Shown here piece after piece: positions 1 through 12,276 of a stretch of DNA of 14,279 bases. Below the pieces are notes generated by a model. That model saw nothing but the letters and a program-made list of their open reading frames with translations, was not told where the DNA came from and did not search any database. The position numbers were made by a program, and so were the translations under genes. The stretch lies in the IMG/VR virus record IMGVR_UViG_3300029079_000040. The stretch is one strand, 5' to 3'. The stretch comes from a virus (taxonomy: Duplodnaviria > Heunggongvirae > Uroviricota > Caudoviricetes). Numbering within the stretch: the first letter of the stretch is position 1; each line of letters begins with the position of its first letter.

Positions 1-19
1 CCGGATACACACTGTTCAT

Positions 20-49
20 AGCCTGCGCCATACGCAGGCTATTTCTTTC
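20..49 (+). terminator. Hairpin AGCCTGCG-CCATA-CGCAGGCT followed by ATTTCTTTC; possible intrinsic terminator or 3-prime stabiliser at the convergence point with racC
   Basis: Perfect 8-bp inverted repeat at 20-27 / 33-40 with a 5-nt loop, then a T-rich run at 41-49 on the + strand. The minus-strand racC stop codon lies at 48-50. Confidence 0.3.
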
Positions 50-323
50 AGATTTCACCTTTTAATTTCATTGCAATCAGAGTTGCCAGAAATTCGGCTT
101 TTTTTTCTGCGGGCAGATTCTTTCCGGTATGCACCAGGCACATTTTTTTGACACCTTCGTGAAGTGTTTTAACGTTGCCTGATGGACCGTCGATATCAAC
201 CACAGTGAATGGGGTTTCTTTATTTTCTGTTTTAATCACGTAGCCAATACGCTTTCCTTCCAGATTAACTTCGTGAACAATGTCATCAGTAGTTACAACA
301 GTGGCTTCATAACTGGTAATCAT
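48..323 (-). CDS. racC: Rac-prophage RacC-like protein, 91 aa (start taken at the internal ATG preceded by AAGGAG, not at the longer track ORF start)
   Basis: Track ORF 48..371 contains MITSYEAT... preceded by AAGGAGAAAAAC-ATG. Length (91 aa) and position downstream of kilR/ydaE match what I recall for Rac racC. Name is from memory and synteny, unverified. Confidence 0.6.
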   Translation of the reverse strand: MITSYEATVVTTDDIVHEVNLEGKRIGYVIKTENKETPFTVVDIDGPSGNVKTLHEGVKKMCLVHTGKNLPAEKKAEFLATLIAMKLKGEI

Positions 324-397
324 GTTTTTCTCCTTAATTAAGGTTGAGCGAATCCCTGCCATTGCTGGCATAAATTCAGTTTCGCATAGTCAGTTAA

Positions 398-568
398 TTA
401 AAGTTCGTGTGCCATCTGGTCTTTTTCGGCACATATTTCACTACAATATTTTTTCATTTCCGTCGTTGGGATAACTCCACGCATGAAATGAAGTGGTCTT
501 TTAATGCTTTTGCTTTCTTTAACTTCTTTATCGCAAAGGTGGTAAGCACATTTTATTTTCTTAGTCAT
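398..568 (-). CDS. ydaE: Small Cys-rich (CxxxxC ... CxxxC) protein, 56 aa; YdaE-like putative zinc-binding protein
   Basis: Hand translation of the minus strand gives [56 protein letters not shown] with stop at 398-400. It is absent from the ORF track. The start ATG (568..566) overlaps the kilR stop (ATGA coupling). Size and position match Rac ydaE as I recall it. Confidence 0.55.
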   Translation of the reverse strand: MTKKIKCAYHLCDKEVKESKSIKRPLHFMRGVIPTTEMKKYCSEICAEKDQMAHEL

Positions 569-789
569 CACCATGACTCCGCCTTTACAGGTAAACCATC
601 ACGACCGAGGAAGACTTTAATCATGCAGTCAGTAATGCATTTTTTTGTGGTCAGGTTACGAATATAAAGCTTTCGCTTTTTAATATTGTTTGCCGAGGCA
701 ATATATGTCCGGCCGTTATGAAGAACATAATCACCAGGAGTCACACACTGACGAGGTATTTCATCAGTTCCGAAGTGATGAGCAATCAT
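568..789 (-). CDS. kilR: Kil protein of Rac type (FtsZ-targeting cell-division inhibitor), 73 aa
   Basis: Track ORF 568..807; preferred start is [15 protein letters not shown]... at ATG 789..787, preceded by GGAG. The 73-aa protein and its position next to sieB fit Rac KilR. Recognised from memory. Confidence 0.65.
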
Positions 790-828
790 AATTATCTCCA
801 TTTTCACAAATGAACTTTGTTGATGCGG

Positions 829-875
829 TGCCTGGTGCCTCCAGGTGACGTTAACCAGTTAACAATTAACGCCGG
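829..875. promoter_or_regulatory. Cluster of short palindromes upstream of the kilR operon and sieB (CCTGG-TGCCT-CCAGG at 831-845; GTTAACCAGTTAAC at 850-863); possible operator/promoter elements
   Basis: Inverted repeats are read directly from the sequence. No convincing -35/-10 pair could be assigned by eye. Confidence 0.2.
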
Positions 876-1220
876 ATAATCCACCCATAACACTGATGCT
901 TTTAACTGTTCCGCGTGCGCTTAGCCGCATTCACCGCATCACAAAATTCACTTTAAAAAGGGCGGACATCAGCCGAACTTCAAGAAAAAAACTGATGCCG
1001 CCAGGACTACACACAGCAATGTCGTTATTTACAACCGGAGGCGCACTCCCACCATTTAAATTTAACAGACAAGACCGACTCTTTATGGATATCGGAAATG
1101 CGCCTTCGTGTTGTGCCCGGTTTTATTTCACCACCTCCGGGCTTCGGTGGTCTCGGCTATACCCCTACAGCGAGAGCTTGTGTTAACATTTCAATACCCT
1201 TACAGTTGAGAGTTATTGAT

Positions 1221-1709
1221 ATGTTGGATGTATTTACTCCATTGTTGAAACTTTTTGCTAACGAGCCACTCGAAAGACTTATGTATACGATTATCATTTT
1301 TGGTCTCACTCTCTGGCTGATACCGAAAGAGTTTGCTGTCGCATTCAATGCTTATACTGAAATACCCTGGCTCTTTCAGATTATCGTTTTTGCCTTTTCT
1401 TTCGTGGTCGCTATTTCCTTCTCAAGATTGCGAGCACATATTCAAAAGCATTATTCATTGCTACCAGAGCAACGAGTATTGCTTCGTTTATCTGAGAAAG
1501 AAATCGCTGTATTTAAAGATTTCCTTAAAACAGGAAATCTTATTATCACTTCTCCTTGCCGTAACCCGGTTATGAAAAAATTAGAACGGAAGGGCATCAT
1601 TCAACATCAGAGTGATAGCGCAAACTGTTCTTATTATCTCGTCACCGAAAAATACTCCCACTTTATGAAGTTATTCTGGAACAGCAGGAGCAGGCGTTTT
1701 AATCGTTAG
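1221..1709 (+). CDS. sieB: Superinfection exclusion protein B (SieB), 162 aa, N-terminal transmembrane helices
   Basis: Track ORF 1098..1709; start taken at MLDVFTPLLK... (ATG 1221). Two hydrophobic helices (IIIFGLTLWLI, LFQIIVFAFSFVVAISF) followed by a soluble domain. Length and placement between kilR and ydaF match Rac sieB. The stop overlaps the ydaF stop on the opposite strand. Confidence 0.7.
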   Translation: MLDVFTPLLKLFANEPLERLMYTIIIFGLTLWLIPKEFAVAFNAYTEIPWLFQIIVFAFSFVVAISFSRLRAHIQKHYSLLPEQRVLLRLSEKEIAVFKDFLKTGNLIITSPCRNPVMKKLERKGIIQHQSDSANCSYYLVTEKYSHFMKLFWNSRSRRFNR

Positions 1710-1861
1710 CTTACTGTGTGCTTCTCCAACCATCGTCGTGCGCCAGCTTCGGTTTTAAACGTTTTGCTTTTGGTATACGTCATGGCAGTGAACGTTCCAT
1801 CCTGGTTGGGGAACACGCCGCACACCAGGGATTCGTTATTGCCGAGGTCGATTTTTTGCAT
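1706..1861 (-). CDS. ydaF: YdaF-like small protein, 51 aa
   Basis: Hand translation of the minus strand: MQKIDLGNNESLVCGVFPNQDGTFTAMTYTKSKTFKTEAGARRWLEKHTVS, with GAGG 8 nt upstream of the ATG. Not in the ORF track (below its length cutoff). Size and position match Rac ydaF as recalled. Confidence 0.5.
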   Translation of the reverse strand: MQKIDLGNNESLVCGVFPNQDGTFTAMTYTKSKTFKTEAGARRWLEKHTVS

Positions 1862-1871
1862 TTTTCGCACC

Positions 1872-2006
1872 TCACATCTTGTTGTTGCGGATAGAGGCTT
1901 CTGCCTGCCAGAGATCCCAGTCGTTGCTGCGTAGAGCCTGTACAGCCTGGCTGTAAGTGATATCGCAACAATCCATCAAATACTGAACTACTTCGTAATG
2001 CACCAT
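1872..2006 (-). CDS. ydaG: YdaG-like small protein, 44 aa
   Basis: Hand translation of the minus strand: MVHYEVVQYLMDCCDITYSQAVQALRSNDWDLWQAEASIRNNKM, preceded by GGAGAG-ATAAG-ATG. Size and position match Rac ydaG as recalled. Confidence 0.5.
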   Translation of the reverse strand: MVHYEVVQYLMDCCDITYSQAVQALRSNDWDLWQAEASIRNNKM

Positions 2007-2115
2007 CTTATCTCTCCCCTTAACGCCGGGTGGGTGAATTTTAACTGGGAGAGCTGGCGTCCGAATGTCGTCCAGCCAGGAATTGCGAAGTAATTTTTAC
2101 CGGGAGAAAAATTTA
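2007..2115. promoter_or_regulatory. 109-bp divergent intergenic region between the ydaG start (minus) and the first plus-strand gene; expected site of divergent early promoters and operators, but no repressor gene is present
   Basis: Positional inference only; no operator repeats confidently identified. Confidence 0.3.
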
Positions 2116-2877
2116 ATGGAGACTGTTTTTGACGCACTGAAAGCAATGGGAAAAGCCACATCCATAGAACTTGCTGCGCGACTTGATATCAGTCGTGAAG
2201 AAGTGCTGAACGAACTATGGGAACTGAAAAAGGCTGGTTTTGTTGATAAAAGCGCGTACACCTGGCGTGTGGCTGATAACAACGTTCAGCAGGAACAGCC
2301 AGCGCAGGCAGAACTGCCGGAAGAAATCACCACAGCAACAGTAGCGAAAATCTCAGAGTGCGATTTAACCGCGACGATTGAACAACGAGGACCACAAACG
2401 GCTGATGAGCTGGCTACATTGTTTGGTACCACATCACGCAAAGTGGCTTCAACGCTGGCAATGGCAATCAGCAAAGGTCGTCTGATTCGCGTAAATCAGG
2501 GCGGTAAATTTCGTTACTGCATACCGGGCGATAATTTACCAGCAGAGCCGAAAGCAGCATCGGTAGCGGAAACTGATGGTAAGGCCTTTCCTCAGACCGC
2601 AGGTGTTGCGTTACCAGTACAGGAGGCTGCAACACAGGAAGATATTAAAACAGAAACTGTGGCGGACATTGTGCAGTCGCTGCCATCGTTTACTGAAACG
2701 CGAGCGGATGACCTGGTTTTACCATCACTGCATATGGCAAACCGCGAACTGCGTCGGGCGAAAAATCATGTCCAGAAGTGGGAGCGTGTCTGCGCCGCGC
2801 TGCGTGAGTTGAACAAGCACAGGGATATTGTACGACAGATTACTGATTCTTCCCGCCATGTTGCATCGGAAAAGTGA
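2116..2877 (+). CDS. Hypothetical protein, 253 aa, with two apparent winged-helix-like segments; possible DNA-binding regulator or initiator
   Basis: Track ORF 2065..2877; start preferred at [13 protein letters not shown]... (ATG 2116), which has GGGAG 9 nt upstream. The segments [30 protein letters not shown] and [32 protein letters not shown] look like winged-helix recognition units. Family not recognised. Confidence 0.55.
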
Positions 2878-2892
2878 TTGCCGGAGGCACCT

Positions 2893-3315
2893 ATGGCAAA
2901 AGTATTTACACCAGAAGAGCGAGAAAAAATTAAAGGACAGGTTGTTGAACTTGTACCTCTGAGCGGTCGCGAGACGTTACGGCAACTGGAAGCCAAGACA
3001 GGTGAGACAAGATATCTGATGAGTGTTCTCGCCAGTGAGCTGGTTGCCAGTGGCGATGTATACAACTCTGGTTACGGGTTATTCCCGTCTGAACAGGCGC
3101 GTAAAGACTGGCAAAACGCCCGCAAAAAACTATCGAGGGCAAAGGTGAAGAAACCTGCTGTAGTTGATCCGGACCTTATCTGGTCATTACCAGACGGAGA
3201 AATACGCCGCTATGACAGGCGTCTGAATATAATCTGTCGCGAGTGCCGGAAGAGCGAAGTCATGCAGCGTGTACTGGCGTTCTATCAGGGTAATTTTCAG
3301 GATGTGCTGTTGTGA
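2893..3315 (+). CDS. Hypothetical protein, 140 aa, basic C-terminal half with a CxxC pair
   Basis: Track ORF 2878..3315; start preferred at MAKVFTPEEREK (ATG 2893) with GGAGG upstream. Function not recognised. Confidence 0.5.
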   Translation: MAKVFTPEEREKIKGQVVELVPLSGRETLRQLEAKTGETRYLMSVLASELVASGDVYNSGYGLFPSEQARKDWQNARKKLSRAKVKKPAVVDPDLIWSLPDGEIRRYDRRLNIICRECRKSEVMQRVLAFYQGNFQDVLL

Positions 3316-3419
3316 GCCAAATTAACAATCAGGGAACTGCGTGAACTGAAAGAGAAATCATAATCCAAATCTGAATAATTAAATTTAGCACTGTAAATAA
3401 AATTTAATCCTTAACCGGA

Positions 3420-3428
3420 GGGGGGGGG
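3420..3428. repeat. Homopolymeric G9 tract in the leader of the 3478 gene
   Basis: Read directly: CCGGA-GGGGGGGGG-CTGCGCCCTC, about 50 nt upstream of the ATG at 3478. It is followed by a GCCC-GAAA-GGGC tetraloop hairpin that sits next to the Shine-Dalgarno sequence. Confidence 0.9.
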
Positions 3429-3477
3429 CTGCGCCCTCAAAATATTAGGAGGCGGCCCGAAAGGGCGGTAATGAAAA

Positions 3478-3981
3478 ATGACTGAATTAACCAAAAAGCA
3501 ATTAATCGAAGAAGCTAAATTAAAAATAGCGATTGAGAAATGCCACCCCAATTCAGGGATGGCACGGGTAGAGGGCGAATTATTCAAAATTGCTCTGGCA
3601 TCGCTGGAAGCAGAGCCAGTTGGTGATTTTTATGAATACAAACCGGATGACTGGTATCAGCGTTCGGCTGGAGATAAAGCGCCAAAATGGACGCCACCCT
3701 ATGCCGTTTTTCCAGCGCCCGTAGTGCCGGAAGAAATGGATTTGCTTACATGCCATCTCGATGGTGTAACTGAAACATATGCTGAGGGATGGAACGCTTG
3801 CCGCGCTGCCCTGCTTCAGGGCAAAGGGGAGCCCGGGAAACAAGTTCGCGAATTGACAATGCTGGTTAAACAATTGGTTAGTCAACTGAAGAAACCGAAA
3901 CCGGGCTGCAAATTGCCGGATAAAGTGATGGACTACCTGGAGCGAAGCGGACTTATAAGCGTGGAGGATGTTTTACGATGA
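3478..3981 (+). CDS. Hypothetical protein, 167 aa
   Basis: Track ORF; TAGGAGG 11 nt upstream. N-terminal predicted helical/coiled region (MTELTKKQLIEEAKLKIAIEK). Family not recognised with confidence. Confidence 0.55.
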   Translation: MTELTKKQLIEEAKLKIAIEKCHPNSGMARVEGELFKIALASLEAEPVGDFYEYKPDDWYQRSAGDKAPKWTPPYAVFPAPVVPEEMDLLTCHLDGVTETYAEGWNACRAALLQGKGEPGKQVRELTMLVKQLVSQLKKPKPGCKLPDKVMDYLERSGLISVEDVLR

Positions 3982-4061
3982 CCTGGCCTGAAGCATTCAC
4001 AACGGTAGGAATTGCGATGGCGGTGGCGCTGGTGGTGTATTCGATTTGCCGCTGGGGTTGA
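3978..4061 (+). CDS. Possible 27-aa single-pass membrane peptide, translationally coupled to the upstream gene
   Basis: ATG at 3978 overlaps the upstream TGA (ATGA). Translation MTWPEAFTTVGIAMAVALVVYSICRWG has a hydrophobic core. It ends just before a terminator-like hairpin. Too short for the ORF track. Confidence 0.3.
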   Translation: MTWPEAFTTVGIAMAVALVVYSICRWG

Positions 4062-4073
4062 TAATACTAAATA

Positions 4074-4097
4074 ACCAGCCCTTATGGGGCTGGCTAA
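4074..4097. terminator. Bidirectional terminator-like hairpin between convergent genes
   Basis: CCAGCCC-TTAT-GGGCTGG stem-loop at about 4075-4093, between the 27-aa ORF (+) and the KilA-N gene (-). A-/T-rich flanks on both sides. Confidence 0.4.
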
Positions 4098-4101
4098 TCA
4101 T

Positions 4102-4875
4102 TTAGAACTGTTCATTGCCATCGAGGTTAGGTAGCATAATTTTTTCAATCAAGGCGAGAGCCTTTTTGTCCCGGTCAGCGAAGTATTTCGGGGCATATTG
4201 CGGCAACCAAATATTGTTAAAATGTTCTTTGAAATCTGCTAAATATTCATTTGGGTACAGCCTTGCAGGGTATACGCGACCATCGGGATATTCATGGTCA
4301 TAGGTAGGGAATGTTTTGGGTTCTACGTTTCTATTATCTCTTAACCATTGTGAAAATACTCTTCCTTGTGAAATGTCAGGAACCATTTTTTCTGGGAGTG
4401 TGTACCCTGCTTGTTCAAGAGGTGCAACCAAGTTGAATGTCAGTTCATTAAGAATAGAAAAGTGCGTGTGAGGAATTCTACTACGATTAACCATGTACCG
4501 TTTTAAATGTACAGGCATTTCTGCTGTAGTTCTTTCCCCTGACATCCATTCACGAACCCATCTTGAAACCTGGACTGCAAATTTGGGCGATAGCCACTGC
4601 GCTAGATTAATAGCGATGTCAGGATGCACCCATGTCCCTTGGTTTTCAGGTCTTCCACCTTTAAATGATTGAATTAACTCCGATATGGGAATTCCCATAT
4701 CGCGTGATAATTCGTCAAAAAACTCTTGAGTAGTTTTGAGTCTAGTGTAATCAGAGAGCAGTTTGCCCGCAGTTCTACACATTGATGTGGCGTTTATGTA
4801 ACCATCTTTGGCACGTAAATGTATTATTTCGCCGTCAATTTCACGAGAAATCAAAGATAATTGAAAGGATGTCAT
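4102..4875 (-). CDS. KilA-N domain protein, 257 aa
   Basis: N-terminal region (GYINATSMCRTAGKLLSDYTRL ... GTWVHPDIAINLAQWLSPKFAVQVSRWV) matches the KilA-N/APSES-type DNA-binding domain signature as I know it. GAGGAA 8 nt upstream of the ATG. C-terminal domain unrecognised. Confidence 0.75.
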   Translation of the reverse strand: MTSFQLSLISREIDGEIIHLRAKDGYINATSMCRTAGKLLSDYTRLKTTQEFFDELSRDMGIPISELIQSFKGGRPENQGTWVHPDIAINLAQWLSPKFAVQVSRWVREWMSGERTTAEMPVHLKRYMVNRSRIPHTHFSILNELTFNLVAPLEQAGYTLPEKMVPDISQGRVFSQWLRDNRNVEPKTFPTYDHEYPDGRVYPARLYPNEYLADFKEHFNNIWLPQYAPKYFADRDKKALALIEKIMLPNLDGNEQF

Positions 4876-5341
4876 TGAAAATTCCTCAAGTTGGAGAGTT
4901 CTGGAACATTAAGGCGAGGTGGCAGTAATGCACCATCTGTAATCTTTTGATACTGACGTAATCGGGCCTGATGTGCAACGCCTTGCAAGTATGTAACTCA
5001 TTGAAAACGATCATTTTTATCTATTGACATCAAATGGCAAACTGTCATTGTGCGGCTATGGCAAGTGGCAAATGCTTATAAATCATATGGATATAAATAG
5101 TACAGAAAGAGTTGTTTTCTCTAGGATATGAGTATACGCCCAATGCTGATTGGTTGAATTTTGTTCTTGTTTTAAAGGGTAAGAGTTTAAAGTGTTGGCA
5201 GTGATGTATTGGATAGTTAGAATTGCTGTGGGTGCTTGAGGCTATCTGCCTCGGGCATGAACACCAAAGGTAGATAGAGAAAAGCCCCAGTTAACATTAC
5301 GCGTCCTGCAAGACGTTTAACATTAATCTGAGGCCATATCT

Positions 5342-5401
5342 ATGCGACACATAGAGATTAGCCTCTTACGGACCGAAAGGTCAAGGAGAAGCAGGCTATG
5401 A
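5342..5401 (+). CDS. Short leader ORF (19 codons) ending in ATGA overlap with the hok start; possible mok-like coupling frame
   Basis: ATG 5342 to TGA 5399-5401, overlapping hok ATG 5398-5400. By analogy to mok/hok translational coupling; weak. Confidence 0.25.
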   Translation: MRHIEISLLRTERSRRSRL

Positions 5402-5523
5402 AGCAGCAAAAGGCGATGTTAATCGCCCTGATCGTCATCTGTTTAACCGTCATAGTGACGGCACTGGTAACGAGGAAAGACCTCTGCGAGGTACGAATCC
5501 GAACTGGCAGACGGAGGCTCTGA
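5398..5523 (+). CDS. hokD: Hok/Gef-family type I toxin (HokD/RelF-like N-terminus), 41 aa as read; C-terminus diverges or is frameshifted
   Basis: Translation MKQQKAMLIALIVICLTVIVTALVTRKDLCEVRIRTG-RRRL. The first 37 residues match HokD/RelF as I remember it. AGGAG 9 nt upstream. Canonical Hok proteins continue ...QTEVAVFTAYEPEE; here the +1 frame reads QTEALIRRLLI. Confidence 0.65.
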   Translation: MKQQKAMLIALIVICLTVIVTALVTRKDLCEVRIRTGRRRL

Positions 5524-5605
5524 TTCGTAGACTACTAATCTGAGTAAAAGACCCAGCGGGGAAAGAACCACGCCGGGACTAGTTAATAAGATATTTATAG
5601 CGTGG

Positions 5606-5947
5606 CTATTCTTTTTTTGCGGTATAGACTTTTTCGCCTGAGAAGTCTGGAGCTACCCAAAAGTTAATATTAAACTGAGCATCATCGCTTAGTTCAACAC
5701 GGTGCCAGTATTGTGGTGGGCTTGTTGCAAAAGCGCCAGCATTAATGACTACTTTTATCTCCGGTTCAGTAGCATTCTCATCAGCAAAACCATAATATGT
5801 TACAGTACCTTCCATCACGCATAACTGTCCAAAAACACCTGCTGCTGTATTATGATGTGTTAATAACGCTGAAGGTACGTTCTCTTTTGTGAAGAACGGA
5901 GTTGAGCGTTTGATTACCCAGTCTTTAGGAATTCTCTTGTGTGTCAT
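5606..5947 (-). CDS. YeaR-like protein (DUF1971, tellurite-resistance-related family), 113 aa
   Basis: Track ORF 5606..5971; start preferred at MTHKRIPKDWVIKRSTPFF (ATG 5947) with GGGAGGTG 5 nt upstream. Aligns by eye with chromosomal YeaR (RSTPFW..., FNIDFFVAPE-like motif FNINFWVAPD). Confidence 0.7.
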   Translation of the reverse strand: MTHKRIPKDWVIKRSTPFFTKENVPSALLTHHNTAAGVFGQLCVMEGTVTYYGFADENATEPEIKVVINAGAFATSPPQYWHRVELSDDAQFNINFWVAPDFSGEKVYTAKKE

Positions 5948-5961
5948 AACCACCTCCCATA

Positions 5962-5986
5962 AAACATGCATTATAAATGCACCTTT
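5962..5986. promoter_or_regulatory. NsrR-box-like palindrome ATGCAT-TATAA-ATGCAC immediately upstream of the YeaR-like gene
   Basis: Sequence AAACATGCATTATAAATGCACCTTT compared with the NsrR consensus AAGATGCATTT-n-AAATGCATCTT (established for E. coli, including the chromosomal yeaR promoter). The match is judged by eye. Confidence 0.35.
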
Positions 5987-6314
5987 TTGAGGGTTATGTC
6001 AAGCTGTTATGAAACACATAATTGATATGTTGATTAGAGGAGAAGATAGAATCAATATGGTTGTTTTTCGTATAACTATTTGTTTTACTTTTAGTTTGTG
6101 CATTCTGTGTGTTAGGAATAACTTATTAAAGTTTAACTAAAAAATCTCGATATAGTCCGCATAGATTACTGTTACTGAATCTTATTGTGTGCATTAGTTG
6201 TGTTCTGAAATTTCAATTTAATTACTTATGATATATTTTTAACGATAAATGTTTTCCGGGTGAAAGACAGTGGGGGATGAGATAAGCAATATATCATTAA
6301 TCTTGATTATTTCC

Positions 6315-6376
6315 AGGATGCCTTTACTGTGCATATAAATAAATCATATACGCATCAAATAATGTAAAGGCATCCT
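6315..6376. repeat. Perfect 13-bp inverted repeat AGGATGCCTTTAC / GTAAAGGCATCCT separated by 36 nt of AT-rich sequence
   Basis: Read directly from the sequence (6315-6327 and 6364-6376). The loop contains TGTGCATATAAAT; the right arm is followed by TTTTAG. Confidence 0.9.
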
Positions 6377-6814
6377 TTTAGATATATCTTATCAAATGTT
6401 AATGATTTGAGTGGGAAACATGATTCCAGAAACTAATCATGCGGCTACTTTATAAAAATAATGCCCATATAAAACAGCCAGCGAAAAGGATTACGGATAA
6501 AAAAGGAGCGAGATGTGCATAGTTGTTATTTTCCATGTTTAACCACCTTAAATAATTGATGATGACGGGATGTGCATCTGTAATGCTTTTGTTGAAATGT
6601 TATGATAAAAAAGAACTTTTTCATAACATTAAAATGTAATTTATCTAATCGTTTTTAATAATAAGTGTTGTATTTCTATCCTTGTATCAGCTATTTGATA
6701 TGTAGTGTTTGTTCATGTTATGTGGAGCTTTACACCATAGCCAGTTTATTTATACTTTATTCGTCAGCCTGAACAACTGGCATCTGCTGCACTGCGCCAT
6801 CGAGAGATTGAGAA

Positions 6815-7414
6815 ATGGCGCATATACAACTGGTCAAACAAACCTCTTCTGGACTACTTCTCCCGGCGACGCCGGAGAGTTGCGATTTTTTGCATCAAAT
6901 CAAAATAGGCGAGTGGATACACGCAGACTTTAAGCGTGTGCGTAACTACGCATTCCACAAGCGTTTTTTCAAACTCCTGCAACTGGGATTCGATTACTGG
7001 ACTCCGGTCGGTGGGGCGATCACGCCTCGCGAACGAAAGCTGGTTTCAGGATTCGTTGATTACCTATGTGAATCAGTAGGCCGGGAACATACGCCAGCTC
7101 TGAGCGAAGCCGCAGAGCAATATCTGAATACAGTTGCGACACGCAGAACCCGGGATACGGCATTGCTAAAGTCGTTTGAGGCTTTCCGCGAGTGGGTAAC
7201 CATTCAGGCCGGATTTTACACCGAGCATCTTTATCCTGATGGTAGCCATGGGCGTCGGGCGAAATCCATCGCTTTTGCGAATATGGACGAAACCGAGTTT
7301 CAGCAGGTTTATAAATCTGTTCTGAATGTGCTGTGGAACTGGATTCTGTTCCGTAAATTTTCCTCTCCGGAACAAGTCGAAAATGTGACCGCGCAGCTGC
7401 TGGAGTTTGCGTAA
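6815..7414 (+). CDS. nin-region protein, DUF1367-like, 199 aa
   Basis: Track ORF. Position immediately upstream of the YbcO-like gene and Q; the family name is a recollection. The stop overlaps the next start (TAATG). Confidence 0.6.
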   Translation: MAHIQLVKQTSSGLLLPATPESCDFLHQIKIGEWIHADFKRVRNYAFHKRFFKLLQLGFDYWTPVGGAITPRERKLVSGFVDYLCESVGREHTPALSEAAEQYLNTVATRRTRDTALLKSFEAFREWVTIQAGFYTEHLYPDGSHGRRAKSIAFANMDETEFQQVYKSVLNVLWNWILFRKFSSPEQVENVTAQLLEFA

Positions 7415-7704
7415 TGGTGGATTTACGTAAAGCGGCGCGGGGGCAGATGTGCACCGTCAGAATTCCTGGCTACTGCAATCACGATCCGGAAACGTCTGTG
7501 CTGGCGCATTACCGACTGGCGGGAACGTGCGGAACAGCGACAAAACCACACGATATGCAGGCGGCGATTGCCTGTAGCTCATGCCACGATCTAATCGACG
7601 GGCGGGTAAAAACCAGCGATTACACCAAAGAAGAATTACGCCTGATGCATGCAGAAGGTGTTTTTCGCACACAAGAAATCTGGAGAAAGGAGGGATATTT
7701 GTGA
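7414..7704 (+). CDS. ybcO: YbcO-like protein (DUF1364, putative metal-dependent nuclease), 96 aa
   Basis: MVDLRKAARGQMCTVRIPGYCNHDPETSVLAHYR ... ACSSCHD closely resembles DLP12 YbcO (MADLRKAARGRECQVRIPGVCN...) as I recall it, with conserved Cys residues and the same length. Confidence 0.7.
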   Translation: MVDLRKAARGQMCTVRIPGYCNHDPETSVLAHYRLAGTCGTATKPHDMQAAIACSSCHDLIDGRVKTSDYTKEELRLMHAEGVFRTQEIWRKEGYL

Positions 7705-8243
7705 TTTACCCAACGAATACAGGAAAAAGCGGAGAACACCTTCGTCTCGCCACGCTGGAAAGTGTCTGGATTCAGGGCAAACTGCGTATGTGGGGGCGCT
7801 GGTCGTATATTGGCGGTGGCAGGTCAGGAAATATGTTCAATCAGTTGTTGGCATCCAAAAAATTGACGAAAACAGCCATCAATGAAGCCCTGCGCAGAAT
7901 GAAAAAAGCGGGAATAGAGAAAGCTGAGCTGGAAGCGTTTTTGCGAGAGATGATCAACGGCAAGCAAAAGAGCTGGCTGGCGCATTGTACTGATGCAGAG
8001 GCGTTATGTATTGATCGAGTCATAAGTGAGGTGCTGGCAGAGCATCCTGGATTGATTAGTGTCCTCCGGCAACGGTATGAAGGACGGGGGATGACTAAGC
8101 GCAAAATGGCTGAATTGCTAAATGATGCACATCCTGAGTGGTGTTTTAGCACATGCGAAAAGCGAATTGCTAATTGGTTGGCTGTTGCTGAGTATGCCCT
8201 ATATATTCCCATGCGAGAATCATTTGCTCAAAAAATAGCTTGA
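7701..8243 (+). CDS. Late-gene antiterminator Q-like protein, about 180 aa from a GTG start
   Basis: Track ORF 7581..8243; preferred start is GTG 7701 (AAGGAGGG 5 nt upstream, GTGA overlap with the ybcO-like stop). Position directly upstream of a promoter-plus-terminator unit and the lysis cassette. Family assignment (phage Q antiterminator) is by context and partial recollection. Confidence 0.55.
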   Translation: MIYPTNTGKSGEHLRLATLESVWIQGKLRMWGRWSYIGGGRSGNMFNQLLASKKLTKTAINEALRRMKKAGIEKAELEAFLREMINGKQKSWLAHCTDAEALCIDRVISEVLAEHPGLISVLRQRYEGRGMTKRKMAELLNDAHPEWCFSTCEKRIANWLAVAEYALYIPMRESFAQKIA

Positions 8244-8270
8244 TTTTTTACGCATAAACTGCTTCAATTC
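8240..8270 (+). promoter_or_regulatory. Candidate late promoter (PR-prime analogue): TTGATT-17 nt-TTCAAT overlapping the Q stop
   Basis: -35-like TTGATT at 8240-8245 and -10-like TTCAAT at 8263-8268; about 60 nt upstream of a terminator. By eye only. Confidence 0.3.
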
Positions 8271-8326
8271 CGGTATGCTTCGCAAAGCTGTATCGCGAGG
8301 CGAACCAAGCGCATGAACTTTACCAG

Positions 8327-8356
8327 AACCCGCCATTGAGCGGGTTTTGTTGTTTC
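8327..8356 (+). terminator. Intrinsic terminator, tR-prime analogue downstream of Q
   Basis: AACCCGC-CATTGA-GCGGGTT stem-loop followed by TTTTGTTGTTTCT. Confidence 0.55.
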
Positions 8357-8404
8357 TGGTACTGGTGAACCTGATGTTTCATTTCTGGAGCGCGATTCCT
8401 GGCG

Positions 8405-8436
8405 GAATACCTAGAATCGAGACATTCTGGTAAAAT
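8405..8436 (+). promoter_or_regulatory. Candidate extended -10 promoter (TGgTAAAAT) for the membrane-protein moron
   Basis: TGG-TAAAAT at 8428-8436, about 30 nt upstream of the ATG at 8465. Weak -35. Confidence 0.3.
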
Positions 8437-8464
8437 TGTTTTCAGTACAGGATGTGGAGGTGAG

Positions 8465-9034
8465 ATGAGAGAACTACCTAAAGATTATTTTTTAGGAGTA
8501 GATGATGAGCTCGTCGATTATCTTGAAAAACAAGGGGAAGAGACGATACGAGAGATTCATCTTTCTAACAAAACCAATGTTGAGAATGGATACAAACTTC
8601 TGAACATTCAGATTGTTGGAATTGGTTCATCTTTTTTATTGCTGACACAGAAAACTAATTTCGATTTTCTCACCGCCGGAATTACCACATTTACATTACT
8701 ATGGACATGGTGCGCCATTTACTTGGTATGTACTGGTTTATCTGTGAAGGTTAGGGGCCTGATCAATGCCCCTCCTGATCATATATATCATGAAAAATAT
8801 AAGGATATGGAGCCCTCGAGCTTTAAAATATTCGCTGATGCAGGATATTTAGGACCTGATAAGTTATTGCCGCTTATACGAAGGTATCGCCTTGTTGACT
8901 TGAGTGATACAGCAAGAGAGTTACTGTTGGAAAATGAGAAAATCCGCACGAGTCTCGATAAAGCAAGGATGTATACCATCCTTGCTCCGGTAGCGGCGAT
9001 GTTTATCTCGGCTGTTTTTTTATATGTTCAATGA
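8465..9034 (+). CDS. Hypothetical integral membrane protein, 189 aa, three predicted transmembrane helices; moron between Q and the holin
   Basis: Track ORF with GGAGGTGAG immediately upstream. Hydrophobic segments LLNIQIVGIGSSFLLL, ITTFTLLWTWCAIYLVCTGL and MYTILAPVAAMFISAVFLYV; acidic N-terminus. Visibly AT-rich compared with the flanking Q and lysis genes. No family recognised. Confidence 0.65.
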   Translation: MRELPKDYFLGVDDELVDYLEKQGEETIREIHLSNKTNVENGYKLLNIQIVGIGSSFLLLTQKTNFDFLTAGITTFTLLWTWCAIYLVCTGLSVKVRGLINAPPDHIYHEKYKDMEPSSFKIFADAGYLGPDKLLPLIRRYRLVDLSDTARELLLENEKIRTSLDKARMYTILAPVAAMFISAVFLYVQ

Positions 9035-9164
9035 CTGAGTCGGCAGAATCTCCAACAAAAACACGACGTGTAGCAAAGTCTGTAGTACTTTGTGTTGGAG
9101 TTGGTTTTGGTGCCACGGGTTGCTGAGGTTTATTTTCACCTTGTGGTTTGTTTTTTTCAGACAT
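9003..9164 (-). CDS. Possible 53-aa Pro/Gln/Lys-rich small protein, convergent with and overlapping the 3-prime end of the membrane-protein gene
   Basis: Within track ORF 9003..9395; internal start MSEKNKPQGENKPQQPVAPKPTPTQSTTDFATRRVFVGDSADSVIEHIKKQPR has AGAGGA 5 nt upstream of the ATG at 9164..9162. Low complexity. Confidence 0.4.
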   Translation of the reverse strand: MSEKNKPQGENKPQQPVAPKPTPTQSTTDFATRRVFVGDSADSVIEHIKKQPR

Positions 9165-9258
9165 AAAAATCCTCTTTGTTTGAATTGTTACTTTTGGCGA
9201 TTTAACGATATCAAACACGAGTATATACCGCCAGAAGCTTAATCTGGCACTCCATCTG

Positions 9259-9286
9259 GCCCCGGCATGTCCCGGGGCTTTTTCGT
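9259..9286 (+). terminator. Strong intrinsic terminator upstream of the holin gene
   Basis: GCCCCGG-CATGTC-CCGGGGC stem followed by TTTTTCGTTGTT. Confidence 0.6.
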
Positions 9287-9381
9287 TGTTAGGCTCTGGA
9301 AACATCCTCGACTTCTTGTTAGCAAGCCTGAGAGCCTGAATCTTACACTTAGCACCATCCGAACTCTCGGAGGTGAGGCTT

Positions 9382-9723
9382 ATGAAAATGCACAATGCCC
9401 CTCATTCCTGGCCTGACTTACTGGAACTCTTACAAAGTTGGTGGCGTGGAGATACGCCGCTGGGTGCAGTGGTTATGTCAATTATTATGGCTGGTTTGCG
9501 CATTGCCTATTTTGGCGGTGGCGGCGGCTGGAAACGAAAAACGCTTGAGATTCTGCTTTGTGGTGCTCTGACGCTGACCTTTGCATCCGCGCTTGAGTAT
9601 GTCGGATGGCCTAAATCACTTTCTGTTGCCATTGGTGGTGGGGTGGGGCTGATTGGTGTTGATGCTATTCGTGGTGCGGCAATGAGGGTCATCGGTAACA
9701 AGTTCGGTGCCCATAAGGAGTAA
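9382..9723 (+). CDS. S: Class I holin with Met-Lys-Met dual-start motif (lambda S-like arrangement), 113 aa from the first ATG
   Basis: GGAGGTGA 6 nt upstream of ATG 9382. MKMHNAP... parallels lambda S107/S105 (MKMPEK). Three hydrophobic segments. Immediately followed by the R endolysin. The track used an upstream GTG (9373). Confidence 0.75.
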   Translation: MKMHNAPHSWPDLLELLQSWWRGDTPLGAVVMSIIMAGLRIAYFGGGGGWKRKTLEILLCGALTLTFASALEYVGWPKSLSVAIGGGVGLIGVDAIRGAAMRVIGNKFGAHKE

Positions 9724-9726
9724 TTA

Positions 9727-10203
9727 ATGCAGACACTTAATTCCCAGCGTAAAGCTTTCCTTGATATGGTGGCATGGTCAGAAGGAACAGATAACGGACG
9801 GCAGAAAACCAGAAATCACGGTTATGATGTTATTGTCGGTGGCGAACTGTTCACTGATTACTCCGATCACCCCCGCAAACTTGTCACGCTAAATCCGAAA
9901 CTCAAATCAACAGCCGCTGGACGTTACCAGCTTCTTTCACGCTGGTGGGATGCCTACCGCAAGCAACTTGGCCTGAAAGATTTTTCTCCAGAAAGTCAGG
10001 ATGCTGTAGCGCTGCAGCAGATTAAAGAGCGTGGCGCTTTGCCGATGATTGATCGCGGTGATATCCGTCAGGCTATCGACCGTTGCAGCAATATATGGGC
10101 TTCACTGCCGGGCGCTGGTTATGGTCAGTTCGAGCATAAGGCTGACAGTCTGATTGCAAAATTCAAAGAAGCTGGCGGAACGGTCAGAGAGATTGAGGTA
10201 TGA
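9727..10203 (+). CDS. R: Endolysin, lambda R-type lytic transglycosylase, 158 aa
   Basis: Near-identical by eye to lambda R (…[58 protein letters not shown]…). Confidence 0.9.
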
Positions 10204-10681
10204 GCAGAGTAACCGCGATTATCTCCGCTCTGGTTATCTGCATCGTCGTCTGCCTGTCATGGGGTGTTAATCATTACCGTGATAACGCCATCGCCTACAA
10301 AGAACAGCGCGACAAAAATGCCAGAGAACTGAAGCTGGCGAACGCGGCAATTACTGACATGCAGATGCGTCAGCGTGATGTTGCTGCGCTCGATGCAAAA
10401 TACACGAAGGAGTTAGCTGATGCGAAAGCTGAAAATGATGCTCTGCGTGATGATGTTGCCGCTGGTCGTCGTCGGTTGCACATCAAAGNNNNNNNNNNNN
10501 NNNNNNNNTCTGTCAGTCAGTGCGTGAAGCCACCACCGCCTCCGGCGTGGATAATGCAGCCTCCCCCCGACTGGCAGACACCGCTGAACGGGATTATTTC
10601 ACCCTCCGGGAACGACTGGTAATGATGCAGGCCCAACTTGAAGGTGCTCAGCAATACATAACCGAGCAGTGTTTAAAGTAA
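10200..10681 (+). CDS. Rz: Rz i-spanin; reading frame interrupted by a 20-nt N run, so coordinates are in window numbering
   Basis: N-terminal [96 protein letters not shown] matches lambda Rz. After the N run, the correct frame reads ...[57 protein letters not shown], stop at 10679-10681. Confidence 0.85.
10420..10622 (+). CDS. Rz1: Rz1 o-spanin lipoprotein embedded in the +1 frame of Rz
   Basis: AAGGAG 8 nt upstream of ATG 10420. [23 protein letters not shown]...[N run]...[37 protein letters not shown] matches lambda Rz1, with its lipobox LVVVGC and proline-rich region. Confidence 0.8.
10489..10508. other. Run of 20 N (assembly gap or masked bases) inside Rz/Rz1
   Basis: Literal n characters in the sequence. 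Comparison with lambda suggests the real content here is about 3 nt (CAG), not 20. Confidence 1.
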
Positions 10682-10818
10682 AATCTTAACTACAATATGA
10701 TTCATTTTGATGATTGTTTCATAAGGAACAGTGAAGTAAGATCTAAGAGGAGTTAAATTTTATACAGTATAATCATAATATTGCAGCAAGGTGGTTATAA
10801 TTGAAAGAATATTTAGAT

Positions 10819-12276
10819 ATGAATACATCTCATGTAAGAGTTGTTACTCATATGTGTGGGTTCCTGGTTTGGCTCTATAGTCTTTCAATGTTGCCACCAA
10901 TGGTTGTAGCATTGTTTTATAAAGAAAAAAGCCTGTTCGTTTTCTTTATAACTTTCGTTATATTTTTTTGCATTGGTGGCGGAGCGTGGTATACAACTAA
11001 GAAATCTGGCATTCAATTACGTACCCGTGATGGGTTTATTATAATTGTAATGTTTTGGATTTTGTTTTCTGTTATTAGTGCATTCCCTTTATGGATTGAC
11101 TCAGAACTTAATTTAACGTTCATTGATGCTCTGTTTGAAGGGGTTTCTGGAATAACAACAACAGGAGCAACTGTAATTGATGATGTTAGTTCATTACCTC
11201 GGGCATATTTGTACTATCGGTCACAGTTAAATTTTATAGGTGGTTTAGGAGTTATTGTTCTGGCGGTTGCTGTATTGCCATTATTGGGTATTGGTGGTGC
11301 AAAGCTTTATCAGTCAGAAATGCCGGGGCCATTTAAGGATGACAAACTCACTCCCCGCCTGGCCGATACGTCACGGACACTGTGGATAACTTATTCTTTA
11401 TTAGGTATTGCTTGTATTGTCTGTTATAGACTTGCAGGAATGCCTTTGTTTGATGCTATTTGTCACGGGATTTCCACAGTTTCGCTTGGTGGTTTCTCAA
11501 CTCATAGCGAGAGTATCGGATATTTTAATAACTATTTGGTTGAGCTGGTGGCTGGTTCTTTTTCCCTGCTATCGGCTTTCAACTTCACTCTTTGGTATAT
11601 TGTTATTAGCAGGAAAACGATAAAACCTTTAATCAGAGATATTGAACTTCGTTTCTTTCTGTTAATAGCCTTAGGGGTGATCATTGTTACCTCTTTCCAG
11701 GTCTGGCATATAGGTATGTATGACTTGCATGGAAGTTTTATTCATTCGTTTTTTCTTGCCAGCTCCATGCTCACTGATAATGGTTTAGCTACGCAGGATT
11801 ATGCAAGTTGGCCCACGCACACGATAGTGTTTTTGCTGTTGTCAAGTTTCTTTGGGGGATGTATAGGTTCAACTTGTGGTGGAATTAAGTCACTTCGATT
11901 TCTTATACTTTTCAAACAAAGCAAACACGAGATAAATCAGCTTTCTCATCCCAGAGCGTTGTTGAGTGTAAATGTAGGAGGGAAGATAGTTACAGATCGT
12001 GTAATGAGGTCTGTATGGAGTTTCTTTTTTCTTTATACTCTCTTCACGGTGTTTTTTATACTGGTGTTAAATGGTATGGGATATGATTTTCTTACATCAT
12101 TTGCAACAGTGGCTGCATGTATTAATAATATGGGATTAGGTTTTGGGGCTACTGCATCGTCATTCGGAGTGCTTAATGACATTGCAAAATGTTTAATGTG
12201 CATAGCTATGATTCTTGGTCGCCTTGAAATTTATCCTGTTATTATATTGTTTTCAGGTTTTTTTTGGCGCTCCTAA
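10819..12276 (+). CDS. trkG: TrkG, TrkH-family potassium uptake membrane protein, 485 aa
   Basis: Multi-pass membrane protein with repeated pore-loop-like GxG motifs. Sequence from MNTSHVRVVTHMCGFLVWLY matches Rac trkG as I recall it, and the position directly after Rz/Rz1 is the Rac arrangement. Track ORF starts at TTG 10801; the ATG at 10819 gives 485 aa. Confidence 0.85.
   Translation: MNTSHVRVVTHMCGFLVWLYSLSMLPPMVVALFYKEKSLFVFFITFVIFFCIGGGAWYTTKKSGIQLRTRDGFIIIVMFWILFSVISAFPLWIDSELNLTFIDALFEGVSGITTTGATVIDDVSSLPRAYLYYRSQLNFIGGLGVIVLAVAVLPLLGIGGAKLYQSEMPGPFKDDKLTPRLADTSRTLWITYSLLGIACIVCYRLAGMPLFDAICHGISTVSLGGFSTHSESIGYFNNYLVELVAGSFSLLSAFNFTLWYIVISRKTIKPLIRDIELRFFLLIALGVIIVTSFQVWHIGMYDLHGSFIHSFFLASSMLTDNGLATQDYASWPTHTIVFLLLSSFFGGCIGSTCGGIKSLRFLILFKQSKHEINQLSHPRALLSVNVGGKIVTDRVMRSVWSFFFLYTLFTVFFILVLNGMGYDFLTSFATVAACINNMGLGFGATASSFGVLNDIAKCLMCIAMILGRLEIYPVIILFSGFFWRS

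What the first reader, a model, noticed from the sequence alone, without database searches (positions are those of the whole stretch)
2007..4100. No repressor, cro or replication genes where a lambdoid immunity/replication region should be; an unrecognised four-gene plus-strand module sits there instead
The window goes from the pL-type genes (ydaG, ydaF, sieB, kilR) straight into a plus-strand operon of four ORFs (253 aa with two winged-helix-like segments, 140 aa, 167 aa, 27-aa membrane peptide), then cargo genes and the nin/Q region. I could not recognise cI/cro, O/P or any other replication module in the whole window. Either the prophage is cryptic through deletion, or this module is a non-canonical regulatory/replication or accessory unit. 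The double winged-helix protein could be an initiator- or repressor-like DNA binder.
Basis: inference. Interest (0 to 1): 0.55.

Follow-up and report, generated by a model that had tools for sequence, protein, structure and literature searches.

The report
Rac prophage with immunity-replication region deleted
This is an ordinary decayed Rac prophage of E. coli: a 3.2-kb deletion removed the repressor, cro, cII-like and replication genes, and the "mystery" four-gene block is the normal, already catalogued next stretch of the operon (YdaW/DUF1627, a Ren-like DUF977 protein, and two accessory ORFs).

Summary
The window is a Rac-type prophage of E. coli. The stated ORFs are real and sit at the stated coordinates. 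The window has no repressor, cro, cII-like or initiator gene.

The four-gene block does not sit "instead" of the immunity/replication region. In intact relatives the order is ydaG | racR | ydaS ydaT ydaU ydaV | DUF1627 (YdaW), DUF977, and so on. This holds for strain N31, K-12, phages Rac-SA53, vB_EcoS-673R7 and Shigella 75/02 Stx, and O157 prophages.

The window carries a deletion of about 3,183 bp relative to K-12:
- The junction is at window 2031-2033, a 3-bp TGG microhomology.
- The last 20 codons of ydaV remain (2031-2093), directly upstream of ydaW.
- Both candidate early promoters lie in the deleted interval.
- The exact junction occurs in only 2 of 5,426 complete E. coli genomes.

The four proteins:
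- The 253-aa protein is full-length YdaW: two winged helices plus a C-terminal helix. The K-12 copy is a truncated chimera.
- The 140-aa protein falls in the same PHROG as lambda Ren and occupies the ren position.
- The 167-aa protein is a mosaic accessory protein of the Ead/Ea22-associated kind.
- The 27-aa ORF is plausible but unproven.

Verdict: known prophage decay, low interest.

The parts
1872..2006 (-). ydaG (44 aa), the last gene of the leftward early arm before the deletion junction
   Evidence: tblastn with K-12 YdaG gives 89% identity over 44 aa. It is annotated as a hypothetical protein in DP051 and N31 and as ydaG in K-12.
2031..2033 (.). Deletion junction, a 3-bp TGG microhomology. 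Identity to the ydaG side runs to 2033 and identity to the ydaV side starts at 2031. Missing relative to K-12 is L003 7485-10667 (about NC_000913 1419484-1422666), 3,183 bp.
   Evidence: Base-by-base extension. The left half of the junction query ends at window 2033 in all other genomes.
2031..2093 (+). Remnant of ydaV (DnaC-like replication loader): the last 20 codons plus the TAA stop
   Evidence: It is identical to the 3' end of ydaV in N31 and K-12. PGAP annotates 'DNA replication protein DnaC, incomplete, missing N-terminus' at this spot in DP051 and AF56.
2116..2877 (+). Full-length ydaW (253 aa, DUF1627): winged helix 1 (residues 1-52), a disordered linker, winged helix 2 (residues 81-135), a second linker, and a C-terminal long helix (residues 205-252)
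   Evidence: Pfam PF07789 at 328 bits, plus sub-threshold wHTH hits at residues 1-48 and 84-137. It is 99% identical to K-12 YdaW residues 1-151. The AlphaFold model has pLDDT 85-93 in both winged-helix domains. Foldseek matches are to tandem-WH and ArsR/MarR wHTH proteins.
2893..3315 (+). DUF977 / 'LygF' protein (140 aa), a remote homologue of lambda Ren at the ren position
   Evidence: Pfam PF06163 at 93.8 bits. It hits phrog_142 'Ren-like exclusion protein' at E=1e-44, and lambda Ren hits the same PHROG at E=1.6e-41. Pairwise BLASTP shows only a C-terminal motif match, 11/20 identities.
3417..3470 (+). Conserved intergenic element: a G9 run, then AGGAGG, then a GCCC-GAAA-GGGC hairpin, just upstream of the 167-aa ORF. 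It precedes other genes in other prophages.
   Evidence: The RNA fold is not better than shuffled sequences (z = -0.76).
3478..3981 (+). 167-aa accessory protein (phrog_660) with conserved N- and C-terminal modules around a hypervariable centre. The modules are shared with DUF551 and Ead/Ea22-like prophage proteins and with N15 gp45.
   Evidence: The AlphaFold model is of low confidence (mean pLDDT 57.6).
3978..4061 (+). 27-aa hydrophobic ORF (MTWPEAFTTVGIAMAVALVVYSICRWG) whose start overlaps the stop of the 167-aa gene (ATGA). A possible small membrane protein.
   Evidence: It is retained with 0-1 amino-acid change next to 65-82%-identical homologues of the 167-aa gene, and sequence homology between loci ends right after its stop codon. 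It has no family hit. N15 gp45.1 is not homologous.
4072..4096 (-). GC-rich hairpin followed by a T-run, a terminator-like site for the convergent KilA-N/BstA-like gene. It marks the right end of the module.

Best explanation
The window is a Rac-type lambdoid prophage of E. coli that lost its immunity and replication region in one illegitimate deletion of about 3.18 kb. The deletion joined a point 27 bp upstream of the ydaG start codon to codon 229 of ydaV, across a 3-bp TGG microhomology preceded by an imperfect AACGCCGGG/AACGGCGGG match. It removed racR (the CI equivalent), ydaS (Cro), ydaT (CII), ydaU (initiator/primosome-type protein), 92% of ydaV (DnaC-like loader), the racR-ydaS control region, and the ydaG-racR intergenic region that holds the best pL-like promoter.

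The four ORFs that now abut ydaG are the unaltered distal genes of the rightward early operon. They are ydaW (tandem winged-helix DUF1627), a Ren-like DUF977 gene, a mosaic accessory gene associated with the Ead/Ea22 kind, and a small hydrophobic ORF. In intact phages these genes are transcribed from the pR-type promoter after the replication genes.

Inferred, not shown: with both early promoters gone the block is at most weakly transcribed, for example by read-through from sieB. Also inferred: the prophage can neither establish immunity nor replicate. Loss of racR is tolerated because the toxic ydaS/ydaT genes and their promoter went with it.

My best guess for the function of YdaW and the Ren-like protein in the intact phage is that they are accessory winged-helix nucleic-acid- or protein-binding factors acting at the replication/anti-exclusion stage. 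They are not repressors or initiators. Confidence in this functional guess is low, about 0.3.
For: - Identity and context. The window is 99.3% identical over its full length to the Rac prophage at ttcA in strain DP051, and 100% identical over window 1000-10000.
- Intact relatives carry racR-ydaS-ydaT-ydaU-ydaV between ydaG and the DUF1627 gene (N31; K-12).
- Breakpoints are mapped to the base and a ydaV tail is retained.
- No RacR, YdaS, YdaT or YdaU homology exists anywhere in the window.
- The exact junction is in 2 of 5,426 complete genomes, whereas 2,451 genomes carry one or both halves at separate places. Of the 153 genomes that match at least 80% of the window, only 2 carry the junction.
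- The same order, repressor / cro / cII-like / initiator / loader / DUF1627 / DUF977, is found in phages Rac-SA53, Shigella 75/02 Stx and vB_EcoS-673R7, and in O157 prophages with a different (DnaT plus lambda-P type) replication module.
- In K-12 the best promoter-like sites (minus strand at L003 7655-7627, 11/12; plus strand at 8310-8339, 10/12) both fall inside the deleted interval. None is found in window 1600-4300.
- Literature. RacR, YdaS and YdaT are regarded as CI, Cro and CII equivalents (PMC5917428). racR can only be deleted together with ydaS and the intergenic region. ydaS is present in only 33.7% of 154 genomes, and always with racR (PMC5700373).
Against: - Nothing contradicts the deletion account.
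- The weaker parts are promoter loss and transcriptional silence. These rest on consensus scans only; no expression data were available.
- The functions of YdaW, DUF977 and the 167-aa protein are untested. The Ren link is profile-level only; pairwise similarity is limited to a 20-residue motif.
- The window itself does not include the attachment site or integrase, so 'Rac at ttcA' is taken from near-identical genomes.
Confidence: 0.93

Rival explanations
1. The four-gene block is a non-canonical immunity or replication cassette that functionally replaces cI/cro and O/P. In this reading the double winged-helix protein acts as repressor or initiator.
For: The 253-aa protein has two winged-helix domains and a probable oligomerising C-terminal helix. 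The block lies exactly where the immunity/replication genes would be.
Against: - The same block sits downstream of complete immunity and replication modules in every intact relative checked.
- A ydaV stump at 2031-2093 shows a deletion, not a replacement.
- There are no iteron-like or tandem repeats and no promoter- or operator-like sites in 1600-4300.
- Fold searches give only generic wHTH matches with TM about 0.2, and no plasmid or phage initiator stands out among them.
Confidence: 0.03
2. The junction is an assembly or sequencing artefact, and the real genome carries racR through ydaV.
For: None specific. Collapsed assemblies can in principle create false deletions.
Against: The identical 301-bp junction is present at 100% identity in two independently assembled complete genomes from different countries: DP051 from the Netherlands and AF56 from the UK. 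Those two genomes differ elsewhere in the prophage. There are no repeats that could cause a collapse, only a 3-bp microhomology.
Confidence: 0.01
3. The deletion is real, and the retained block is still an active, host-beneficial accessory unit. It would provide counter-defence or exclusion functions through YdaW and the Ren-like protein, would be expressed by read-through from sieB or another promoter, and would be kept by selection rather than by chance.
For: - All four ORFs are intact.
- No plus-strand terminator-like site lies between sieB and ydaW.
- K-12 ydaW was recovered as a blocker of the retron-Sen2 toxin RcaT in an overexpression screen (bioRxiv 10.1101/2020.06.22.160242).
- Lambda Ren, in the same PHROG as ORF2, is named for resistance to Rex exclusion. 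The Rex function itself is from my background knowledge.
Against: - The deletion allele is 100% identical to relatives across 9 kb, so it is too young for intact ORFs to indicate selection.
- No promoter-like site was found.
- The retron result came from overexpression of the truncated, chimeric K-12 protein.
- The module proteins have no PADLOC hit beyond weak wHTH-only matches.
Confidence: 0.15

Closest known systems
Cryptic prophage Rac of E. coli K-12 (racR-ydaS-ydaT-ydaU-ydaV-ydaW)
   Same: It has the same prophage type and gene order. The left arm is 94.9% identical and the ydaV tail plus the ydaW 5' part is 99.8% identical. ORF1 equals YdaW.
   Different: K-12 keeps the 3,183 bp of racR through ydaV that the window lacks. 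K-12 in turn lacks window 2566-10219, which runs from the 3' part of ydaW through the Q and lysis genes. K-12 YdaW (186 aa) is therefore a chimera whose last 37 residues come from the Rz region. These are two independent decay events.
Full-length Rac-like phages: Rac-SA53 (KU052037), vB_EcoS-673R7 (ON470616), and the N31 prophage
   Same: The ydaW-DUF977 pair follows the loader gene. In 673R7 and N31 the 167-aa gene, the KilA-N gene, and the Q, lysis and trkG genes follow in the same order.
   Different: They retain a repressor, cro, a cII-like gene, an initiator and a loader upstream. The immunity alleles differ between them, which is normal mosaicism.
Laboratory deletions of racR in K-12 (Krishnamurthi et al. 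2017, PMC5700373)
   Same: racR is removable only together with ydaS and the intergenic control region. Those authors recovered a sieB-to-ydaU deletion. The natural deletion here removes racR, the control region and ydaS/T as one block.
   Different: The deletion here is natural, has different end points (ydaG upstream region to ydaV codon 229), and leaves sieB intact.
Lambda ren gene (Ren-like exclusion protein, phrog_142)
   Same: It occupies the same map position, immediately after the replication loader gene in the pR operon. It falls in the same PHROG as the 140-aa protein.
   Different: Lambda Ren is 96 aa and does not reach the Pfam DUF977 threshold. Pairwise similarity is limited to a 20-residue C-terminal motif. 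Lambda has no DUF1627 gene between P and ren. Function was not tested here.

Membership tests
Lambdoid immunity region (CI-type repressor and divergent Cro, here RacR/YdaS, with the CII-like YdaT) | Divergently transcribed repressor and cro-type HTH genes with an intergenic operator/promoter region | tested here: not met
   tblastn with K-12 RacR, YdaS and YdaT against the window gives no hit below E=0.1. None is annotated in the near-identical DP051 locus or its flanks. No promoter-like sites are found in 1600-4300.
Lambdoid replication module (initiator plus helicase loader: YdaU/YdaV, O/P or DnaT/P types) | Intact initiator and loader genes, and usually an origin with repeats | tested here: not met
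   There is no YdaU homology, and only the last 20 codons of YdaV remain. There are no iteron or tandem arrays in 1800-4300.
Rac prophage | Gene order racC-ydaE-kilR-sieB-ydaF-ydaG ... ydaV-ydaW ... trkG-ynaK, integrated next to ttcA | tested here: met
   The gene order is seen in the window through near-identical annotated genomes. The attachment at ttcA is seen only in the flanks of DP051 and AF56, not in the window itself.
Pfam DUF1627 (PF07789) / YdaW | Score above the Pfam gathering threshold, and orthology to K-12 YdaW | tested here: met
   328 bits against a cut-off of 28.1. 150/151 identities with K-12 YdaW residues 1-151.
Pfam DUF977 (PF06163) | Score above the Pfam gathering threshold | tested here: met
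   93.8 bits against a cut-off of 22.1, covering the full length of the model.
Ren-like exclusion proteins (phrog_142, type member lambda Ren) | Profile membership together with lambda Ren, and position directly after the loader gene | tested here: met
   The 140-aa protein hits at E=1e-44 and lambda Ren at E=1.6e-41 to the same PHROG. Position was checked in lambda and in Rac-like phages.
Ren-like exclusion proteins (phrog_142, type member lambda Ren) | Confers resistance to Rex-type exclusion | not testable with these tools
   This needs a phage plating assay on rexAB lysogens.
Winged-helix (wHTH) DNA-binding fold, tandem arrangement | An H-(E)-H-H-E-E topology twice in one chain, with structural matches to solved wHTH proteins | tested here: met
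   The AlphaFold model has two such units (residues 1-52 and 81-135) at pLDDT 85-93. Foldseek matches ArsR/MarR-type wHTH domains at rmsd of about 1-1.5 A over 55-60 residues, and tandem-WH proteins (ESCRT-II, ScpB, SelB) at E of 1e-4 to 1e-3. DNA binding itself was not tested.
Dual-winged-helix replication initiators (plasmid RepA/RepE/pi type) | Closely packed WH1-WH2 domains with specific sequence or fold similarity to Rep proteins, and cognate iterons nearby | tested here: not met
   There is no Rep family hit in Pfam, NCBIfam or PDB sequence searches. The top PDB fold matches are other tandem-WH proteins. The two winged-helix domains are separated by a ~28-residue disordered linker. There are no iterons.
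Anti-phage defence systems (PADLOC) | A significant hit of the module proteins to a defence-system model | tested here: not met
   There are only weak wHTH-level hits (E >= 2e-4) for YdaW, and none for the 140-aa and 167-aa proteins.

The most novel reading that the evidence does not exclude
The YdaW (tandem winged-helix DUF1627) and Ren-like DUF977 pair keeps its place directly after the helicase-loader gene whatever the loader type. It could therefore be a dedicated counter-defence module of lambdoid phages, blocking abortive-infection systems such as Rex or retron-Sen2. It might still be expressed and useful to the host in this promoter-deleted remnant.
Probability: 0.12. Interest if true: 0.45.

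Novelty: already known. Interest (0 to 1): 0.1.

Why it matters
It matters little beyond correct annotation. The locus is a clean natural example of how Rac prophages decay. It agrees with published genetics showing that racR can only be lost together with ydaS/ydaT and their control region. It also shows that the K-12 reference YdaW is a truncated chimera, whereas this window carries the full-length gene. That is useful for anyone studying YdaW/DUF1627 or the Ren-like DUF977 proteins, whose functions are still untested.

Tried and rejected
- Sequence searches of the three larger proteins against PDB chains gave nothing below E=0.5.
- NCBIfam gave only sub-threshold wHTH hits for YdaW and nothing for the other proteins.
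- PADLOC gave nothing meaningful for the module proteins.
- Foldseek of the YdaW model against PDB and BFVD returned only generic wHTH or tandem-WH matches with TM about 0.2. No specific family could be named.
- The AlphaFold model of the 167-aa protein had mean pLDDT 57.6, so I ran no fold search on it.
- I had no homologue searches left to build an alignment for DUF977, so I did not model it.
- Rfam at gathering and at E<=1 found only sok. No tRNAs were found.
- There are no iterons or tandem arrays in the module.
- Promoter scans found nothing in 1600-4300, and only two 9/12 sites (fewer than the shuffled mean) in 1-2200.
- I tested whether N15 gp45.1 is a homologue of the 27-aa ORF. It is not.
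- YdaW against DUF977 by BLASTP is not significant (E=0.26).
- The conserved intergenic element at 3417-3470 does not fold better than shuffled sequences.
- A literature search for LygF gave only annotation-level mentions.
- Several fetched loci (L002, L004-L006) never appeared in the Python sandbox. Breakpoints against N31 were therefore read by eye. Breakpoints against K-12 were computed.
Full report
**What is in the sequence**

The six-frame ORF list and the sequence itself show four plus-strand ORFs at the stated place:
- 2116-2877, 253 aa. A longer 270-aa reading from 2065 only adds an upstream in-frame ATG.
- 2893-3315, 140 aa.
- 3478-3981, 167 aa.
- 3978-4061, 27 aa. Its start overlaps the previous stop as ATGA.

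To the left lie racC, ydaE, kilR, sieB, ydaF and ydaG (1872-2006, minus strand). To the right lie a KilA-N gene, hok/sok, a DUF1971 gene, DUF1367-YbcO-Q-like genes, lysis genes, trkG and a ynaK fragment. This reading uses the annotation of near-identical genomes.

tblastn with K-12 RacR, YdaS, YdaT and YdaU finds nothing in the window (all E > 0.1). YdaV matches only at its extreme C-terminus. The factual core of the observation therefore holds: there is no repressor, cro, cII-like or initiator gene, and there are four plus-strand ORFs.

**Where the window comes from**

The whole window matches E. coli chromosomes. It is 99.3% identical in one piece to strain DP051, where it is the Rac prophage next to ttcA/intR. 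All 100 differences fall in window 1-1000 and 10000-11000. Window 1000-10000, which includes the whole finding, is identical to DP051.

Other close matches align in two or three pieces because they carry extra DNA. In strain N31 the extra DNA lies between ydaG and the DUF1627 gene. It is racR, ydaS, ydaT, ydaU and ydaV. K-12 Rac has the same five genes there, followed 22 bp later by ydaW.

**The deletion**

Against K-12, identity on the ydaG side runs to window 2033 (K-12 locus L003 position 7484). Identity on the ydaV side starts at window 2031 (L003 position 10668). The two sides overlap in TGG (sequences).

The window therefore lacks 3,183 bp of K-12, roughly NC_000913 1,419,484-1,422,666. 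Against N31 the figure is about 3,186 bp. Just 5' of both breakpoints there is an imperfect match, AACGCCGGG versus AACGGCGGG. This is typical of illegitimate, microhomology-mediated deletion.

The TGG is in frame with ydaV. The last 20 codons and the stop codon of this DnaC-like loader survive at 2031-2093. PGAP calls the same spot a DnaC pseudogene in DP051 and AF56.

A 301-bp probe across the junction is found intact in only 2 of 5,426 complete E. coli genomes, DP051 and AF56. By contrast, 2,451 genomes carry one or both halves of the probe at separate places. The two junction genomes differ elsewhere in the prophage. DP051 has a recE-xis deletion. AF56 has an intact int-recE arm but a different right-end truncation. 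The junction is therefore real and arose once in a minor lineage.

**The "module" is in its normal place**

The DUF1627 gene followed by the DUF977 gene sits directly after the helicase-loader gene in all of these:
- N31 and K-12.
- Phage Rac-SA53.
- Shigella phage 75/02 Stx.
- Phage vB_EcoS-673R7. This phage also has a 100%-identical 167-aa gene and the same KilA-N gene, Q, lysis genes and trkG.
- Five O157-type prophages whose replication genes are of a different type, DnaT-like plus lambda-P-like.

All of these also have a repressor, a cro and a YdaT/CII-like gene upstream. In a few loci DUF1627 is followed by a different gene instead of DUF977.

So nothing replaced the immunity/replication region. 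It was cut out, and the next genes of the rightward early operon now abut ydaG.

Compared with K-12 the two prophages have complementary losses. K-12 lacks window 2566-10219. The last 37 residues of the 186-aa K-12 YdaW come from window 10219-10329, so the reference YdaW is a chimera and the window has the full-length gene.

**The proteins**

*ORF1 (253 aa).* It is PF07789/DUF1627 (328 bits) with sub-threshold wHTH hits at residues 1-48 and 84-137. An AlphaFold model was built on 27 homologues from two sub-families. It shows two winged-helix units (residues 1-52 and 81-135, pLDDT 85-93), disordered linkers (56-76 and 140-180), and a long C-terminal helix (205-252). The C-terminal helix carries most of the invariant residues. 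Foldseek finds ArsR/MarR-type wHTH domains at about 1 A rmsd, and tandem-WH proteins such as ESCRT-II, ScpB and SelB. TM scores are only about 0.2, and no initiator or phage repressor stands out.

*ORF2 (140 aa).* It is PF06163/DUF977 and hits phrog_142 "Ren-like exclusion protein" at 1e-44. Lambda Ren hits the same PHROG at 1.6e-41 and occupies the same position after P. Direct similarity is limited to a 20-residue C-terminal motif.

*ORF3 (167 aa).* It has conserved N- and C-terminal modules around a hypervariable centre. It shares these modules with DUF551 and Ead/Ea22-like proteins and with N15 gp45. Homologues sit in various early-region positions, including near xis/int in phage H19J. 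Its model was too poor to search with.

*ORF4 (27 aa).* It is kept with 0-1 amino-acid change beside diverged ORF3 homologues. Inter-locus homology ends right after its stop codon, which is mild support for a real small gene.

**Consequences (inference)**

In K-12 the best promoter-like sites are a leftward one between racR and ydaG (11/12 match) and a rightward one between racR and ydaS (10/12). Both lie inside the deleted interval. No promoter-like site is found in window 1600-4300, and only two weak ones in 1-2200. The block has probably lost its normal promoter. Read-through from sieB cannot be excluded, because no plus-strand terminator-like site lies between sieB and ydaW.

RacR, YdaS and YdaT are regarded as CI, Cro and CII equivalents (PMC5917428). 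racR is essential in K-12 because it represses ydaS/ydaT. It can be deleted only with ydaS and the control region. ydaS occurs in only a third of 154 genomes, and always with racR (PMC5700373). The natural deletion here fits that rule exactly.

**What the retained genes may do**

No function is established.
- K-12 ydaW was a blocker of the retron-Sen2 toxin in an overexpression screen.
- YdaW is listed among E. coli transcription factors of unknown function.
- Lambda ren is described as transcribed with O and P and "likely involved in DNA replication", and Ren interacts with Rex proteins in two-hybrid assays.

My best guess is that these are accessory winged-helix factors of the replication or anti-exclusion stage. 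Confidence in that guess is low.

**Verdict**

The finding is explained by a known process, Rac prophage decay by deletion, and by catalogued gene families. It is not novel and is of low interest. The residual open question is the function of DUF1627 and DUF977. That question is general to lambdoid phages and is not raised specifically by this window.

Noticed in passing
window 4102-4875 (minus strand): The 257-aa KilA-N protein convergent with the module hits the PADLOC model for BstA, a prophage-encoded abortive-infection defence protein, at E=3.2e-21 over residues 119-238.
   Followed up: partly
window 5230-5523: This is a hok/sok type I toxin-antitoxin locus. The Rfam sok hit at 5230-5400 scores 101.5 bits, and a Hok/Gef ORF lies at 5398-5523.
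   Followed up: partly
window 2565/10220 (K-12 L003 11201-11202): K-12 Rac has its own 7.65-kb deletion relative to this window. It fuses ydaW codon ~150 to the Rz region, so the reference K-12 YdaW (186 aa) is a chimeric, truncated protein. The window encodes the full-length 253-aa form.
   Followed up: yes
window 3417-3470: This is a conserved ~55-nt intergenic element: a G-run, then CTGCGCCCTC, then AGGAGG, then a GCCC-GAAA-GGGC hairpin. Sequence around it matches 1,428 of 5,426 E. coli genomes. In O157 prophages it precedes a different gene (DUF7167). The G-run length varies: 9 here, 8 in phage 673R7, and 5 in O157 prophages. It may be a mosaic 'boundary sequence' or a translation-initiation element. 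Its RNA fold is not better than shuffled sequences.
   Followed up: partly
window 3978-4061: A 27-aa hydrophobic ORF overlaps the stop of the 167-aa gene. It has 3 substitutions in 84 nt, against roughly 12 per 100 nt just upstream, in a diverged locus. Homology between loci stops right after its stop codon. It is not annotated in RefSeq genomes.
   Followed up: partly
window 1-1000 and 10000-11000: All 100 differences from strain DP051 cluster in these two patches, and the 9 kb between them is identical. This suggests recombination patches rather than uniform divergence.
   Followed up: no
window 5972-6814: This is an 843-bp stretch with no annotated gene between the DUF1971 gene and the DUF1367 gene. 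Related prophages carry a small rem gene in the corresponding interval. There is no Rfam or tRNA hit here.
   Followed up: no
window 1998-2093: The deletion created a chimeric 31-codon ORF. Its ATG lies opposite the 5' end of ydaG and it reads in frame into the ydaV tail. It is probably meaningless.
   Followed up: no
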